DNA of 21,444 nt from Tolypothrix carrinoi HA7290-LM1 (GCA_019358935.1 JAHHIK010000131.1:1-21444), one strand, 5' to 3'; positions 1 to 4,760 are shown, counted from the first letter of the stretch. Program-made: numbers and translations. The notes: generated from the letters alone by a model not told the origin.

Positions 1-142
1 CTTGTCCCCCTTGTCCCCCTTGTCCCCCTTGTCCCCCTTGTCCCCCTTGTCCCCCTTGTCCCCCTTGTCCCCCTTGTCCCCCTTGTCCCCCTTGTCCCCC
101 TTGTCCCCCTTGTCCCCCTTGTCCCCTTGTCCCCTTATCCCC
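1..142. repeat. Tandem 9-mer array (TTGTCCCCC)n, at least 13 perfect units, in frame inside the caspase-STAND gene (encodes GGQ repeats)
   Basis: Perfect units at 2-118, then degenerate 8-mers. Minus-strand translation is ...[21 protein letters not shown]... Confidence 0.97.
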
Positions 143-1972
143 TCCCAGCCGTTGTGCCAAAACCTCTATGGGATTAGCACCTGGGCGCAAAGTTCTAATT
201 AGCCACTGTTCGCTGCTGGGGATTTGTTTACCTAGTTTCAGTTGGGGAATGACGCCGGCTTGGACAACTGAAGATTTACCGCTACCAGAAGCACCGACGA
301 CGGCAAGAAATGAGCGATCGCGCAATTGATGAATTAACTGCTGAGTTAAGCTTTCACGACCGTAAAAATATTGGGCATCTTCTTCCGAAAAAGCACTTAA
401 ACCCATGTAAGGACAGATACCTAAATCTAAGCCTGCCTTTTGTTCTCGCCCTTGCATATAAGTTTTTTCTCTTAAGATTTCGATGATACCTTGTGTACCG
501 GAAAGCCAGACGTAGAAAGGAATATCGCTACCGGCTAATTGTAATTGCAATTGAGCGATCGCCCCAGCCGCAGATAATCCGTCTACTTCCGCTGCCGCTG
601 TTAAAGTATCAAATAAAGTTTGGGCAAATTTTTCAGTTGCCGATGCTGGAGAAGCACAAGCAATTATACACTGTCCCTCTTGGGAGTCGATTTGCAAATC
701 TTCTACCCAATCTTGTAGAGATGCAGAAGCAGGACAATCGAGGATGATGATTTGTTTAGCATTACAGTGACGTAGTTGTTGTTTTAACCACGATCGCTTG
801 ATGCGGATATCTTCTCCCAGCACCAAACCATCGATAGCTTCAGTTTCCTCGATGCGTCCGCGCAGATAAAGTAAAATAGTTTCTGATTCGGGTGAGTGTA
901 AAAGACGAGCGATCGATGAACGCACATCCTCAGCAGCCTTTGTCGCTTGCAAATATTTCAAGTTAAAACCGCCAACACTATCCAAAAACTTGCTAATATC
1001 TAAAGTTATCGTACTTCCTGATAGTCCCTCTACAACTATCCCCAATCGACGATGCACATCATCATCAGCTTTTTCTTGCCTAACTCCTAAAATCAGTTCC
1101 CCAACTCCTTCGACAATTCGTTTAGGAGTTTGTAAAGGATATTCGCGCTCAAGCTGAGTATCTCCTTTGCCTCTTCTCTGCTGATTAATCAATCGTAATT
1201 GTTGATTAGTTTTATCAATATATTGCAACGTTTGATGATAAACATAACGATAAAGTCCATCAGCAGAAATTATCCCCTTTGAATCTGCCGCTTCACCATT
1301 TAACCCGCGCATTAAATAATAACTAAAAACTCCATGTCCTAATTCGGGAAATTCCCAAGATTGCTGATTATTATCGCAAGAAAGCAAAGCATAAAAACCT
1401 TTACTTTTTGCAGCAGTTCGCTGTAATACCTCTACTAATTGCGTTGTCGGGTTCAGCAGCGGTTCTCTGGTTGTACCTCTCAGCGTCATTCCACCGCTAT
1501 GACAAGCATCCAGCCAAACTAACTGATTCTGCGCTGGACAATTATCTAACAATTGTAATAGTTCTTGTAATTTGAAACCTGTATTTTTTAAGTTTGATTT
1601 TTGCGTGTCTGCTAAACATAAAAATGCTTCCTGAGAATTTGGTTCTAACATTCCGTGCCCGGAGAAATAAAATAAAACCATATCCTGCGGTTTAGCAGCA
1701 GCGGTAATTTCTTGGAGACTAACGCGCACATTCTCCTTTGAAGGTGGTAAAGAAGCAAAATCGTGATGAATTTTCACCTCTTTTTGCGGAAACTGTCTGG
1801 TAGCAGCAGTCAAAGCATCCGCTAAACCCTGACAATCGACATATGAATAATTTAGCGTCGGGAGTCCTTTATCTTGATATTTATTGACTCCCACAAGCAT
1901 TAACCACAGCTTTGCCGTATCTGTTTTTTTAACTTGATTTGAGCGACTAGTACCTACACCGATTGGACACAT
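1..1972 (-). CDS. Caspase (peptidase C14/orthocaspase)-STAND NTPase protein, 5' part; continues beyond the left window edge
   Basis: Manual translation from the ATG at 1972. All checked motifs fall in one frame: [34 protein letters not shown]..., VLFYFSGHG (His codon 1655-1657), [10 protein letters not shown] (Cys codon 1502-1504), CPYMGLSAF...YFYGRE, Walker [18 protein letters not shown] (about 255-305). The frame ends in GGQ repeats at the edge. It is absent from the ORF track because its stop lies outside the window. Confidence 0.93.
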
Positions 1973-2016
1973 TTTAATTAAGTGTATTTAAATCTTAATA
2001 TTTACTAAGTTGTGAA

Positions 2017-2155
2017 TTGGGCATTGGGCATTGGGCATTGGGCATGGAAAGAATCTCTTATACAATCATGGCAAATCTCACGGGATAGAAATAACCTTTT
2101 ACTCATGCCTAATTCCTAATTCCCAATGCCCATTGCCCCATGCCCATTACCCAAT
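2017..2155. repeat. Inverted pair of heptamer STRR-type arrays, (TGGGCAT)4 ... degenerate (ATGCCCA)n, in a divergent intergenic region
   Basis: tgggcat x4 at about 2018-2046; complementary cccaatgcccattgccccatgcccattaccca at about 2122-2153. Confidence 0.9.
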
Positions 2156-2275
2156 TCTAAAAATTTCTAAATATTTAACTTTAAGCCGAAACATGATTCT
2201 CATTAGTTGTAGTAAAGTTTGTGCAGGCGTGTTTTAACGCTTGCATTCCTTGCATAGGTCGAGATATTGTGTTTT

Positions 2276-3448
2276 ATGCATCCAAGACAAAGTATTATTT
2301 CCATATTTTCAACTTTTGTGCAATTTAATGGCGATCGCTTTCACGGTTGGGCGACGGATAGTAAACTGCGCCGCAGTATGCAAAGTTGTGTAAACAAAAC
2401 GCCACAAGAACAAGACGAAAATTTTTGGGTACTTTATTGGTACAATTATATCTCCCTTCCTCGGGTGGAGAAACTTGCCAAAGAACATCTGATTGCTTAT
2501 TTACAAGAAGTCTGCTATTGGACATCGCAAAAAACATCTGCTAGTTTTAGCAGTACTCAATATAAGTTACCAGACTGTTTTCAAATGGCGATCGCTTCTG
2601 TTGATAAAGTCCTCAAAGGTTTCAATCCTAACCAAGGCTTTATCTTAAAAAACTACGCCAGCGTTATCTTTGGTAGCGTCATCCGTGAAACTTTGCGTCA
2701 ACGCGGCGAAATTGATATCTGTACAGAATGGGGAATGTTGCGGAAAATTAGTCAAAAGCGTTTGGTAGAGTCTTTGCAAAATGCTGGCTTATCTCCTGAG
2801 ACTGTTACGGCTTACGTCCTGGCTTGGAATTGTTTTAAAACGCTTTATGTCCCAAAGCAGCCTCAGGCAACGCGCCAACTTGCTCGACCAGACAATGATA
2901 CATGGAGTGCGATCGCACAAGCTTATAATTCCCAAAGTAGTCAAAAAGTAACTTCGCAAATTTTGGAAACTTGGCTGCTCAGTTGTGCCAAACATGCGCG
3001 AAACTATCTTTATCCACCTTCGGCATCAATTAATGTTTCCCCCGCCGGTCAAGATACAAGCGAATGGATAGATAATCTCGCTGGAGAGGTAGATTCAGTA
3101 CTTACCCAAATTATTACTCAACAAGAAGAACAAACCAGAATTTCTCAGCAATCCGAGATTAATAATGTTTTAGCCGCCGCAGTTGCCCAACTAGAACCAG
3201 AAGCACAACAAATTTTGCAACTATATTATAGTCAGGGGCTGACTCAGCAGCAAATTGCCAAAGAACTAGTTTTGCAGCAATATACTGTCTCGCGGCGACT
3301 CACAAAAGCTAGAGAAATTTTACTGCGAAATTTGGCTAAATGGAGTAGTGAGAAGCTGCATATTTCTGTCACCTCAGACCTACTCAAAAATATGAGTACC
3401 GTAATGGAGGAATGGCTGCAAGCTTACTACAGCGTATCTCCTTATTAA
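2276..3448 (+). CDS. Cyanobacterial sigma-70-family-like regulator with C-terminal region-4 HTH (HetZ-like architecture)
   Basis: About 390 aa. C-terminal LEPEAQQILQLYYSQGLTQQQIAKELVLQQYTVSRRL is a typical sigma region-4 HTH. ATG 2276 preferred over TTG 2267. Confidence 0.82.
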   Translation: MHPRQSIISIFSTFVQFNGDRFHGWATDSKLRRSMQSCVNKTPQEQDENFWVLYWYNYISLPRVEKLAKEHLIAYLQEVCYWTSQKTSASFSSTQYKLPDCFQMAIASVDKVLKGFNPNQGFILKNYASVIFGSVIRETLRQRGEIDICTEWGMLRKISQKRLVESLQNAGLSPETVTAYVLAWNCFKTLYVPKQPQATRQLARPDNDTWSAIAQAYNSQSSQKVTSQILETWLLSCAKHARNYLYPPSASINVSPAGQDTSEWIDNLAGEVDSVLTQIITQQEEQTRISQQSEINNVLAAAVAQLEPEAQQILQLYYSQGLTQQQIAKELVLQQYTVSRRLTKAREILLRNLAKWSSEKLHISVTSDLLKNMSTVMEEWLQAYYSVSPY

Positions 3449-3587
3449 ACCTCTTGGACTTATTTGGGAAAAATAAAAGGGGTAAGGGTTCACAAGGAAG
3501 TATCAAAATTTCTCTTCCCTAATCCAAGCGTCCAAGCGTCCCTAGTCCAAGCGTAAACCCCAAGCCAAAATTTCCGGAGTAATTTTC

Positions 3588-4760
3588 ATGACTGCTAACG
3601 CCGCCTTGTTTACTTTTGCATCCCCGACAGATTTGATTTTAGAAATACCCGCCAACGTCCAAAATCAGGCGTATCTTCACAGTCAATCTTTTTCTCATCC
3701 TAGTTCTGGTTATCAAGCTTATTTAAATGAACTTTGCTTGAATGTTGTTTTGGCGTGGCTGCAAGCAGATTTTGCACCCCAGGCAAAAGTATCGCCGAAT
3801 ATCAATGCTTTAGCAAGTTTTTGGGAACTGGTGAATGGGACTGCAATTGTATCAGACGGCATTCGATTTATTTTGGTTCCTAGCGAGGCGATGGATTTAA
3901 GTGAATTGCGAGTACCGCAAGAATGGGTAGATATATCTAGTTTAGCTGGTGATTATTATTTAGCAGTGCAAGTAGAACCGGATGAAGCTTATGTGCGGGT
4001 TTGGGGTTACTGTAGTTATGAACAACTGAAAAATCAAGGAAGTTATGATGCAAGCGATCGCACTTATTCCCTTGATGCTGTTGATCTTATTAGCGACATC
4101 AACGTTTTAACTTTAGCGTTACAGCTTTGCCCGCAAGAAAGTACGCCTAAGGTTATCCCACAATTAGCAACATTACCACAACAACAAGCACAAAATTTAA
4201 TTTCTCGTTTAGCAAAGAAAGAAATAATCACACCGAGACTAGCTATTCCTTTTCAACTTTGGGGTGCGCTAATTGAACATGGCGGTTGGCGACAAAGCTT
4301 ATATCAACGCCGCTTGGGACTACCAGAACAGTGGTCAGTTATCCAATGGTTGCAAAGTGGTGTTTCTCAACTTGCAGAAAACATCGGTTGGGGAAACTTG
4401 ATGCAAGTAAGCGCCGCCGGTGCGCGGAGTGTCGAAGAAACACAACCACAAACAATTCTTTCTCGGCAGTTGGCGATCGCCGGTCAAACCTACGAACTGC
4501 GTATTATACCACAAAACGAAGGAGAATCAACAATTTGGCGCTTTGAATTGCGTAACGCCGCCGTAGGTGCAGCCATTCCCGGTGGGTTTAAACTGAGACT
4601 ACTCACCGAAGATTTACAAAGCTTCCCCAACAACGAAGATATAGCCATAACAGCCGTAGAGCAACTTTTTGTAGAAGTAGCGCTAGAATCAGGTGAAGGC
4701 ATAGTTTGGGAAATAGAACCCAAAAGCGAAAACTACGACCGAGAAATATTAAGATTTTAA
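3588..4760 (+). CDS. DUF1822 family protein
   Basis: Motifs SFWELVNGTAI, ELRVPQEWVDI, DYYLAVQVE and VRVWGY are characteristic of cyanobacterial DUF1822 proteins. GGAG RBS lies upstream and the gene follows the sigma-like gene. Confidence 0.88.
   Translation: MTANAALFTFASPTDLILEIPANVQNQAYLHSQSFSHPSSGYQAYLNELCLNVVLAWLQADFAPQAKVSPNINALASFWELVNGTAIVSDGIRFILVPSEAMDLSELRVPQEWVDISSLAGDYYLAVQVEPDEAYVRVWGYCSYEQLKNQGSYDASDRTYSLDAVDLISDINVLTLALQLCPQESTPKVIPQLATLPQQQAQNLISRLAKKEIITPRLAIPFQLWGALIEHGGWRQSLYQRRLGLPEQWSVIQWLQSGVSQLAENIGWGNLMQVSAAGARSVEETQPQTILSRQLAIAGQTYELRIIPQNEGESTIWRFELRNAAVGAAIPGGFKLRLLTEDLQSFPNNEDIAITAVEQLFVEVALESGEGIVWEIEPKSENYDREILRF

What the first reader, a model, noticed from the sequence alone, without database searches (positions are those of the whole stretch)
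1..4760. Candidate caspase-STAND sensor / DUF1822 anti-sigma / sigma-like proteolytic signalling module
Seen: a caspase with an intact His-Cys dyad fused to a STAND-type NTPase lies head-to-head across about 300 bp with a sigma-70-like gene followed by a DUF1822 gene. Known: STAND NTPases are NLR-like switches that oligomerise on ligand binding and activate N-terminal effectors. In Anabaena the caspase-like protease HetF degrades PatU3, encoded in the hetZ-patU operon. In type III-E CRISPR the protease Csx29 cleaves Csx30, which binds a sigma factor. Inference: this is an inflammasome-like cascade in which the sensor activates the caspase, the caspase cuts DUF1822 and the sigma-like factor is released, for defence, cell death or differentiation. 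The anti-sigma role of DUF1822 is my hypothesis.
Basis: partly seen in the sequence, partly recalled or inferred. Interest (0 to 1): 0.82.

Follow-up and report, generated by a model that had tools for sequence, protein, structure and literature searches.

The report
Orthocaspase receptor gating a sigma factor
In this cyanobacterium a membrane receptor carrying a caspase-type protease probably switches on a dedicated sigma factor by cutting its partner protein at one conserved arginine, which would give cyanobacterial caspases a concrete substrate and a gene-regulatory job rather than a purely cell-death one.

Summary
The three genes are real and linked. The caspase has its His106/Cys157 dyad, a dead second caspase copy and nSTAND1. 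The gene continues on contig C31 with a membrane helix and WD40 propellers, so it is a transmembrane receptor, not a cytosolic inflammasome. The neighbour has true sigma2 and sigma4 folds. Sigma plus DUF1822 beside EACC2-caspases was predicted in 2021 (PMC8195603). This scan has noted that CHAT version, and the lone caspase, on other DNA. New here: (1) a C14 orthocaspase family replaces the CHAT protease; all 20 genomes carrying it also carry the sigma (40 of 151 do). (2) DUF1822 has a near-invariant Arg (R280) in a disordered loop, like the Arg-Ser site where HetF cuts PatU3, and the residue before it tracks the protease class. (3) An ECF-like promoter, TGCATA-N16/17-C[CG]TA, precedes the caspase and DUF1822, is fixed at codon level inside the sigma gene, and predicts a regulon of secreted proteins, other caspases and a HetZ-related gene. 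Binding and cleavage are inferred; no complex could be modelled. Verdict: new variant of a known kind, directly testable.

The parts
2..1972 (-). 5' part (657 aa) of a C14 caspase / pseudo-caspase / nSTAND1 / TM / WD40 receptor gene; the rest (1199 aa, open at its 5' end) is at the end of contig C31
   Evidence: relatives L001, L005, L007 align collinearly to the window start and to C31:68942-69876; aa 683-923 of the L001 protein are 100% identical to the C31 ORF
1079..1912 (-). Active-type C14 caspase domain: His106 (1655-1657), Cys157 (1502-1504), and the acidic S1-pocket residues Asp46 and Asp155
   Evidence: all four invariant in 26 rows; Asp46 and Asp155 align with the Asp residues of metacaspase motifs
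473..1051 (-). Degenerate second caspase domain (YLRGR in place of YFSGHG; LDCP in place of LDAC)
   Evidence: hhalign probability 74%, E 2.8e-5 against the first domain; listed as CASPASE+CASPASE in the PMC8195603 supplement
272..298 (-). Walker A motif of nSTAND1 (domain starts near 412); Walker B is on C31
1..142 (+). In-frame 9-bp tandem repeat (16 copies, Gly-Gln-Gly) at which the assembly breaks
2147..2203 (-). 18-codon relic of the start of a secreted-protein gene that is intact and divergent from the sigma in Nostoc-type orthologous loci
2255..2280 (-). Predicted sigma-dependent promoter (TGCATA-N16-CCTA) pointing at the caspase gene; its -35 box overlaps the sigma start codon on the other strand
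2276..3448 (+). Divergent sigma-70-family (ECF-like) factor: sigma2 about 2411-2704, SANT-like insertion, sigma4 about 3143-3349
   Evidence: sigma2 Z 12.1, rmsd 1.9-2.2 A over 92-93 residues; sigma4 Z 8.8, rmsd 1.2 A over 69
3357..3382 (+). Predicted internal promoter (TGCATA-N16-CCTA) in the 3' end of the sigma gene, 206 bp before DUF1822
   Evidence: (codon fixation)
3588..4760 (+). DUF1822 protein, putative anti-sigma and caspase substrate: N-terminal restriction-endonuclease-like fold (aa 16-185), helical part, disordered loop, C-terminal Ig-like sandwich (aa 289-390)
4407..4445 (+). Disordered loop aa 274-286 with Arg280 (4425-4427), predicted cleavage site AGAR|SV
   Evidence: (pLDDT < 50)

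Best explanation
A transmembrane protease / anti-sigma / sigma relay. An outside ligand binds the fast-evolving WD40 propellers. The cytoplasmic nSTAND1 domains oligomerise and activate the Arg-specific C14 caspase, probably aided by its dead twin domain. The caspase cuts DUF1822 after Arg280, the N-terminal fragment is degraded or lets go, and the sigma factor transcribes from TGCATA-N16/17-C[CG]TA promoters. Targets are more caspase (positive feedback), DUF1822 (negative feedback) and a regulon rich in secreted and envelope proteins, other caspases and HetZ-related protein 2. Shown here: domains, intact motifs, linkage, co-occurrence, conserved Arg, the DNA motif and its placement. Inferred: topology, ligand sensing, cleavage, anti-sigma binding, and that this sigma reads the motif.
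For: Linkage: 78 of 80 loci have DUF1822 and 50 of 80 the caspase family. In an evenly drawn sample of 151 genomes, all 20 with the caspase family (E<1e-90) have the sigma family, which 40 of 151 have; 15 of 35 such caspases lie within about 11 kb of a sigma (my tally). The STAND-WD40 form is linked at 10 further loci in 8 genomes of 5 families. C14 and EACC2-CHAT partners are nearly exclusive: both at 1 of 69 loci. In L213 the C14-STAND gene sits in the slot of EACC2-CHAT-CHASE2 (sigma, DUF1822, protease, DUF928). Substrate site: Arg in 63 of 64 sequences at the R280 column while its neighbours vary, inside a loop of pLDDT < 50. The residue before it is small in 59 of 60 C14-linked and large in 43 of 47 CHAT-linked proteins. 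A small-residue site is present in 20 of 20 genomes with the caspase against 2 of 20 without. All 10 of 10 tested loci with such a site but no caspase nearby have the caspase elsewhere in the genome. HetF cuts PatU3 at R117|S118 (PMC9457339, passages); C14 members other than animal caspases prefer Arg/Lys at P1 (PMC5756287, passages). Promoter: 152 hits in 169 loci against 5-30 for eight other spacers, 127 of them within 450 bp upstream of a same-strand ORF. Genome-wide the strict motif has 28 hits against 3-6, 20 of them upstream of genes. In the sigma gene the His codon is CAT in 104 of 104 (background 57%), Val is GTA in 68 of 77 (23%), Asp is GAC in 34 of 37 (31%). Topology: TM helix in 23 of 23; TM and WD40 are 53-80% identical to relatives against 88-100% for the cytoplasmic part.
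Against: Nothing here shows binding or cutting. The P2/partner match rests on few evolutionary events: 4 changes of partner on the tree, 1 independent pair on well-supported branches, sign test not significant. The rule that picked P1 was set after seeing the data, and aligners tend to stack arginines in gappy loops. 20 of 35 caspases are not near a sigma, and 23 of 69 sigma loci have no protease within the fetched stretch. The caspase gene is itself behind the predicted promoter, so it could be only an output. The genome has six sigma-like/DUF1822 pairs, so the motif cannot be assigned to this copy. Across the other 39 sigma-bearing genomes a stricter motif is only modestly enriched (73 against 45 reversed controls), and five genomes without a detected sigma have 4-5 hits. 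Homology to HetZ and PatU is not established. The loci are kin and partly redundant.
Confidence: 0.6

Rival explanations
1. The caspase receptor is only an output of the sigma regulon. The sigma/DUF1822 pair is controlled in trans by the EACC2-CHAT proteases or by something else, and the caspase cuts other proteins.
For: The predicted promoter precedes this caspase, its paralogue and two unrelated C14 caspases. The genome holds several EACC2-CHAT-CHASE2 genes. 20 of 35 caspases are unlinked.
Against: C14 and EACC2-CHAT neighbours are nearly exclusive. The residue before the Arg differs by partner class, including a nested clade that returned to CHAT partners and to a large residue. Genome-level match of 20 of 20 against 2 of 20.
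Confidence: 0.15
2. An NLR/Avs-like anti-phage or cell-death system: the STAND senses a phage product, and cleavage either unleashes DUF1822 as a toxic effector (its N-terminal domain has a nuclease-like fold) or frees a sigma that drives death or defence genes.
For: Intact Walker A in 23 of 23 and Walker B in 22 of 23. Diversifying sensor. The DUF1822 N-domain resembles PD-(D/E)XK nucleases (Z about 7). The predicted regulon includes two more caspases and a HEAT-NACHT protein. Protease-effector modules such as EACC1 are death effectors (PMC12642450, passages), and caspase-STAND-WD40 proteins of cyanobacteria are called Apaf-1 homologues (PMC13581612, passages).
Against: TM helix with basic residues on the STAND side, so the sensor is probably outside. 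6 of 71 neighbouring proteins hit PADLOC at 1e-8, all partial matches to generic ATPase, methyltransferase or TPR models. Recurrent neighbours are TPS, RTX, DUF928, FecR, Tll0287-HAMP and periplasmic-binding proteins. I could not recognise a PD..(D/E)xK motif on the expected strands (my reading). Most linked caspases (38 of 50) have no STAND at all.
Confidence: 0.15
3. The caspase does cut DUF1822, but DUF1822 is not an anti-sigma. It is an adaptor or co-activator, or it controls another target such as cell division, as PatU3 does through Ftn6.
For: PatU3 has a second role in cell division (PMC9457339, passages). No known anti-sigma fold stands out in the structure search.
Against: DUF1822 directly follows the sigma at most loci (78 of 80) and sits behind a predicted sigma-dependent promoter. 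That is the negative-feedback layout of hetZ-patU (PMC13342950, parts 2-4).
Confidence: 0.07
4. The head-to-head position is an accident of a local deletion, and the caspase has no functional tie to the sigma/DUF1822 pair.
For: A relic of a deleted secreted-protein gene lies in the spacer. The closest non-Tolypothrix orthologous loci (L034, L068, L074, L075, L080) have no caspase next to the sigma.
Against: The caspase is 3 kb away in the undeleted arrangement (L162). It is linked in other layouts in five families. Genomes of the orphan loci have it elsewhere. Co-occurrence is 20 of 20.
Confidence: 0.03

Closest known systems
EACC2-caspase neighbourhoods with ECF sigma and DUF1822 (Kaur, Iyer, Burroughs, Aravind 2021, PMC8195603; section 9, passages and supplement rows seen)
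   Same: Same sigma + DUF1822 pair, a caspase-superfamily protease with a variable, often membrane-spanning sensor, and a proposed transcriptional output. Four such loci lie in this genome (C129, C83, C73, and a broken one at C28).
   Different: No EACC2 domain; the protease is a C14 orthocaspase with a dead twin, not the CHAT type. The paper proposes auto-peptidase activation and names no substrate, cleavage site, anti-sigma role or promoter in the parts read. Its 26 supplement rows of CASPASE+CASPASE+nSTAND1+BetaPropeller carry no sigma or DUF1822 label (unlabelled neighbours are shown as '?').
HetF - PatU3 - sigma-HetZ of Anabaena PCC 7120 (PMC9457339 passages; PMC13342950 parts 1-4 of 7)
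   Same: Clan CD protease, cleavage of the inhibitor at an Arg-Ser bond, an insertion-rich ECF-type sigma encoded just upstream of its inhibitor, and sigma-driven expression of the inhibitor.
   Different: HetF is a CHAT protease. hetZ, its two relatives and the patU-like gene lie elsewhere in this genome. The promoter differs (TCCGGA / TGnA). Sequence homology is not shown: only language-model leads (PatU 0.82, HetZ-related 0.89) and a weak C-terminal profile match (E 0.005, probability 7%).
Csx29 - Csx30 - CASP-sigma (type III-E; PMC10028731 passages) and CalpL - CalpT - CalpS (bioRxiv 10.1101/2024.05.08.593097 passages)
   Same: An activated protease cuts an anti-sigma (CalpT in an unstructured region) and the ECF-like sigma is released; CASP-sigma has binding motifs in its own locus.
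   Different: No cas genes among the 13 window ORFs scanned. The sensor is a STAND-TM-WD40 receptor, not a CRISPR complex or a cyclic oligoadenylate sensor. The proteins are unrelated in the searches run.
Cyanobacterial orthocaspases with NTPase and WD40 domains; Apaf-1-like STANDs; EACC1-caspase modules (PMC5756287, PMC13581612, PMC12642450, passages)
   Same: C14 domain with an acidic S1 pocket, nSTAND1, two WD40 propellers; NF047832 scores 138.8 against a cut-off of 140.
   Different: No EACC1-sized gene next to it, a membrane helix before the sensor, and a sigma/DUF1822 pair as the conserved partner instead of a pore or nuclease effector.

Membership tests
EACC2-caspase system (Kaur 2021) | N-terminal EACC2 domain before the caspase | tested here: not met
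   The caspase starts at aa 21-25.
EACC2-caspase system (Kaur 2021) | Constant caspase module with a variable C-terminal sensor | tested here: met
   Three tails on the same caspase: nSTAND1-TM-WD40, tandem helical repeats, or WD40 without STAND.
EACC2-caspase system (Kaur 2021) | Neighbouring ECF sigma and DUF1822 genes | tested here: met
Sigma-70 family (ECF-like) | sigma2 and sigma4 domains | tested here: met
   TIGR02937 above cut-off; all listed Foldseek rows are sigma factors or their complexes; sigma2 Z 12.1, sigma4 Z 8.8.
Sigma-70 family (ECF-like) | Binds core RNA polymerase and initiates at a bipartite promoter | not testable with these tools
   A candidate bipartite motif was found; its assignment to this protein is inferred.
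C14 orthocaspase / metacaspase | His-Cys dyad and acidic S1 pocket | tested here: met
   H106, C157, D46, D155 invariant in 26 rows; alignment to metacaspases.
C14 orthocaspase / metacaspase | Arg/Lys-specific proteolysis | not testable with these tools
   Inferred from the pocket residues and PMC5756287.
HetF-PatU-HetZ | Sigma is a HetZ-family member | tested here: not met
   NF037963 hits three other genes, not C131; the profile comparison matches only one helix-turn-helix.
HetF-PatU-HetZ | Inhibitor homologous to PatU | tested here: inconclusive
   No full-length match. C-terminal domain E 0.005-0.05, above 0 of 100 and 0 of 60 shuffles in local mode but probability at most 7%. Atlas lead 0.82.
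HetF-PatU-HetZ | Inhibitor cleaved at an Arg-Ser bond by the protease | not testable with these tools
   A matching conserved Arg is present; cleavage is not shown.
NLR-like antiviral STAND (Avs / bacterial NLR) | Intact STAND NTPase with N-terminal effector and C-terminal repeat sensor | tested here: met
NLR-like antiviral STAND (Avs / bacterial NLR) | Sensor in the cytoplasm | tested here: inconclusive
   A hydrophobic helix (Kyte-Doolittle 1.8-2.5) between STAND and WD40 in 23 of 23 suggests it is not; prediction only.
NLR-like antiviral STAND (Avs / bacterial NLR) | Defence-island context and phage protection | tested here: inconclusive
   6 of 71 neighbours with generic partial PADLOC hits; protection cannot be tested here.
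CRISPR-associated protease systems (Csx29, CalpL) | Linked type III CRISPR-Cas genes | tested here: not met
   No Cas family among the 13 window ORFs scanned in Pfam; loci beyond the window were not scanned for Cas genes as such.
EACC1-caspase module | Small EACC1 gene directly upstream of the caspase | tested here: not met
   No ORF of 70 aa or more in the 303-bp spacer; only an 18-codon relic.

The most novel reading that the evidence does not exclude
Sigma/DUF1822 pairs are distant paralogues of HetZ/PatU and form a large family of plug-in switches. Two protease classes (CHAT and C14 orthocaspase) each address their own DUF1822 through the residue before a conserved Arg. The caspase-STAND-WD40 protein is then a bacterial transmembrane 'death-receptor-like' sensor whose output is a transcriptional programme feeding into the HetZ family, and heterocyst commitment is one specialised member of this family.
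Probability: 0.3. Interest if true: 0.88.

Novelty: new variant of a known kind. Interest (0 to 1): 0.68.

Why it matters
Cyanobacterial orthocaspases are usually discussed as cell-death enzymes, and a 2017 review counted only one as biochemically characterised (PMC5756287). This locus names a substrate, a single scissile bond, a sigma factor and its promoter, so the question of what these proteases do becomes a set of simple assays. If right, it extends the protease / anti-sigma / sigma logic of heterocyst development and of CRISPR-associated proteases to a widespread receptor family with a rapidly diversifying outer sensor, and it gives DUF1822 a function.

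Tried and rejected
Complex prediction of sigma with DUF1822 was not available, so binding is open. Sequence searches of solved structures gave nothing for DUF1822 and no sigma-HetZ entry. Foldseek gave no hit at E<=0.001 for the DUF1822 model, and the best Z of 7 may reflect only common folds. Full-length homology to HetZ and PatU was not detected; Atlas scores under 0.9 are leads only. The idea that the caspase cuts itself at a copy of the DUF1822 motif was dropped for this gene: many relatives have GAR/SAR after the catalytic Cys, the window's copy does not, and the 57 of 80 count is inflated by matches to a later AAKS. 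My first reading of the DNA motif (TAGG..TATGCA, towards the sigma) was reversed after it proved antisense to 49 and sense to 3 of 1309 neighbouring gene starts. The conserved CGAAACATG block in the spacer is a coding relic, not a promoter. The first tree run did not finish; FastTree was used with the loop masked. RNA: contigs of relatives from 4 of 18 listed runs cover parts of all three genes but cannot show transcription. Two contigs end at 3393 and 3391, near the predicted internal start, one runs through it, and no DNA run was laid, so this is not used as evidence. Literature: 'DUF1822' is in 2 papers. Searches for the motif and for metacaspase + sigma-70 + neighbourhood listed nothing that describes this module (listings only). 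The library lacks most subscription papers, one Kaur supplement file was not searched, and bioRxiv supplements are closed. Accessions NF037963 and NF037965 were recalled, then confirmed. 'PatU' for the gene after hetZ rests on synteny and the Tyr-Arg-Ser motif, not on a named profile.

Full report
Observation. The window is a whole contig (C131) of a 7.96-Mb cyanobacterial assembly; the closest named relatives of the sigma gene are Tolypothrix/Hassallia records at 91-98%. ORF 2..1972 (-) has a C14 caspase (aa 25-229) and the start of nSTAND1 (aa 521). The ORF from ATG 2276 to 3448 is a sigma-70-family protein, and 3588-4760 is DUF1822. His106 and Cys157 are present and invariant in 26 homologues.

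The rest of the receptor. The contig breaks in an in-frame 9-bp repeat. Three relatives align collinearly from the window start onto the end of contig C31, which holds a 1199-aa open ORF with Walker B, a hydrophobic helix and WD40 repeats; the full orthologue has 13 Pfam WD40 matches. A paralogue of 1751 aa follows 3 kb later. Residues 308-500 are a second caspase fold without the dyad. A membrane-type helix preceded by basic residues lies between STAND and WD40 in 23 of 23 full-length copies, so caspase and NTPase are probably cytoplasmic and the propellers outside. The cytoplasmic part is 88-100% identical to four relatives, the helix region 53-55% and the propellers 67-80%, as expected of a diversifying sensor.

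The sigma. Its model has a sigma2 domain (Z 12.1, rmsd about 2 A, 92-93 residues), a SANT-like insertion and a sigma4 domain (Z 8.8, rmsd 1.2 A); overall pTM is low, 0.38. It is not HetZ: the HetZ profile finds three other genes in the genome.

Linkage. Of the best 80 of 221 loci, 78 have DUF1822, 50 the same caspase family (8 with STAND, 38 with a short helical-repeat tail, 3 with WD40 only), 12 only CHAT proteases and 18 no protease in the stretch held. In 151 evenly drawn genomes of the class, 20 have the caspase family at E<1e-90 and all 20 have the sigma family, found in 40. Three further genomes had only weak caspase-domain hits and no sigma and were not counted. 15 of the 35 caspases lie within about 11 kb of a sigma (my tally). 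Among 69 sigma loci of that sample, 14 have the C14 family (10 with STAND, in 5 families), 32 only CHAT, 23 neither, and 1 has both C14 and EACC2-CHAT. Kin are not independent. The exact head-to-head layout is derived: the spacer keeps an 18-codon relic of a secreted-protein gene that is intact in orthologous loci, and in L162 the caspase is 3 kb away behind that gene.

DUF1822 as substrate. The model (pLDDT 83) has an N-terminal restriction-endonuclease-like fold, a helical part, a disordered loop (274-286) and an Ig-like C-terminal domain. The loop holds Arg280, which is Arg in 63 of 64 sequences while its neighbours vary. The caspase has the acidic pocket of Arg/Lys-specific C14 enzymes (PMC5756287), and HetF cuts PatU3 at Arg117-Ser118 (PMC9457339). 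Among 143 DUF1822 proteins, the residue before the Arg is small in 59 of 60 C14-linked and large in 43 of 47 CHAT-linked ones; 35 had no protease nearby (28 small, 6 large, 1 without a site) and 1 had both. By genome the figures are 20 of 20 against 2 of 20. On a tree with the loop masked this amounts to a gain and a nested reversal, too few events for a test.

A predicted promoter. Enumeration upstream of sigma genes gave a bipartite motif in 20 of 100 de-duplicated regions against 0.3 in shuffles. It is antisense to 49 and sense to 3 of 1309 neighbouring starts, so it reads TGCATA-N16/17-C[CG]TA, much like ECF promoters of the SigW type (recalled). It occurs 152 times in 169 loci, against 5-30 for other spacers, and 127 times just upstream of a gene. 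The window has exactly two copies: 2280-2255 towards the caspase and 3357-3382 inside the sigma gene towards DUF1822. At the internal site synonymous codons are fixed to spell the motif (36 of 104 genes match it in full). In this genome the strict motif has 28 hits against 3-6 controls, 20 upstream of genes. Of 24 listed targets I scanned 19: two further C14 caspases, a HEAT-NACHT protein, astacin, peptidoglycan-binding, FG-GAP, DUF928, a histidine kinase, an alpha-amylase-family protein and HetZ-related protein 2, with eight unassigned in Pfam. The site before HetZ-related protein 2 recurs in 3 of 5 other sigma-bearing genomes (one with a mismatch) and in 0 of 5 comparison genomes. Against this: enrichment in the other 39 sigma-bearing genomes is modest (73 against 45), five genomes without a detected sigma have 4-5 hits, and six sigma-like paralogues in this genome could share the motif.

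Mechanism. Most likely (0.6): outside ligand, STAND oligomerisation, caspase activation, a cut after Arg280, release of the sigma, and transcription of the caspase, DUF1822 and a secreted-protein regulon. Rivals: the caspase is only an output (0.15); anti-phage or death system (0.15; only 6 of 71 neighbours have generic PADLOC hits, but the regulon includes caspases and a NACHT protein); DUF1822 is cut but is not an anti-sigma (0.07); chance adjacency (0.03). A complex model could not be obtained.

Known systems. Kaur et al. 2021 describe EACC2-caspase genes with ECF sigma and DUF1822 neighbours, and their supplement lists 26 CASPASE+CASPASE+nSTAND1+BetaPropeller proteins without such labelled neighbours. 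The locus fails membership of the EACC2 system on its defining domain but works like it. It works like HetF-PatU3-sigma-HetZ and like the CRISPR-associated protease / anti-sigma systems without being a member of either. Kinship of DUF1822 with PatU and of the sigma with HetZ is suggested by two Atlas leads and a weak profile match and remains open. Earlier notes of this scan cover the CHAT version (47 findings) and the lone caspase-STAND gene (5 windows). One of them gave the lead to look for a promoter motif. None held all the words of my last query.

Verdict. A new variant of a known kind. The outline is published, but the C14 branch, the candidate scissile Arg with partner-matched specificity and the promoter with its regulon were not found in the searches named, and they make the role of cyanobacterial orthocaspases directly testable. 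Interest 0.68.

Noticed in passing
G000:C31:58046-63298 (L081:3044-8299, -): Second caspase / pseudo-caspase / nSTAND1 / TM / WD40 paralogue (1751 aa) 3 kb behind the first, with its own copy of the predicted promoter 103 bp upstream.
   Followed up: partly
G000 contigs C129, C83, C73, C28, C161 (L082, L083, L091, L084, L092): Five more sigma-like + DUF1822 pairs; four are near EACC2-CHAT-CHASE2 genes. The C28 copy is truncated and its CHAT-CHASE2 gene is in pieces; C161 has no protease next to it.
   Followed up: partly
L009, L014, L018-L079 (about 38 loci): Short caspases end in two repeats of a small helical domain that also ends neighbouring Ser/Thr kinases. They sit with Tll0287-HAMP, a phosphonate-binding-like protein and MFS-FHA genes; no Pfam match for that domain.
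   Followed up: partly
G000:C3:117591-118775 (L237): HetZ-related protein 2 has the predicted promoter 112 bp upstream; a possible link from this sigma family to the HetZ family.
   Followed up: partly
G000:C1:155468-157440: Four tandem copies of the predicted promoter at about 0.5-kb spacing, three followed by near-identical 124-aa secreted-looking Gln/Asn-rich proteins.
   Followed up: no
L053, L054, L056, L058, L061, L067: The motif precedes aromatic-amino-acid-pathway-like genes (my reading of the sequences: tryptophan synthase alpha and anthranilate synthase-like) near the module in Rivularia/Calothrix-type loci.
   Followed up: no
window:17224-20373 (-): GH65 glycoside phosphorylase fused to a HAD (beta-phosphoglucomutase-like) domain, with in-frame 9-bp repeat insertions like those in the caspase gene.
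   Followed up: no
window:13913-15204 (-): RRXRR-family gene apparently split into two ORFs (201 and 178 aa); probably a decayed mobile element.
   Followed up: no
window:10094-13820: Short ParE-like ORF (70 aa) and a 1018-aa TPS exoprotein with 177-bp repeats; TPS genes recur near sigma/DUF1822 loci elsewhere.
   Followed up: no
L202, L216, L217: Sigma relatives in family f40 without DUF1822 next to them.
   Followed up: no
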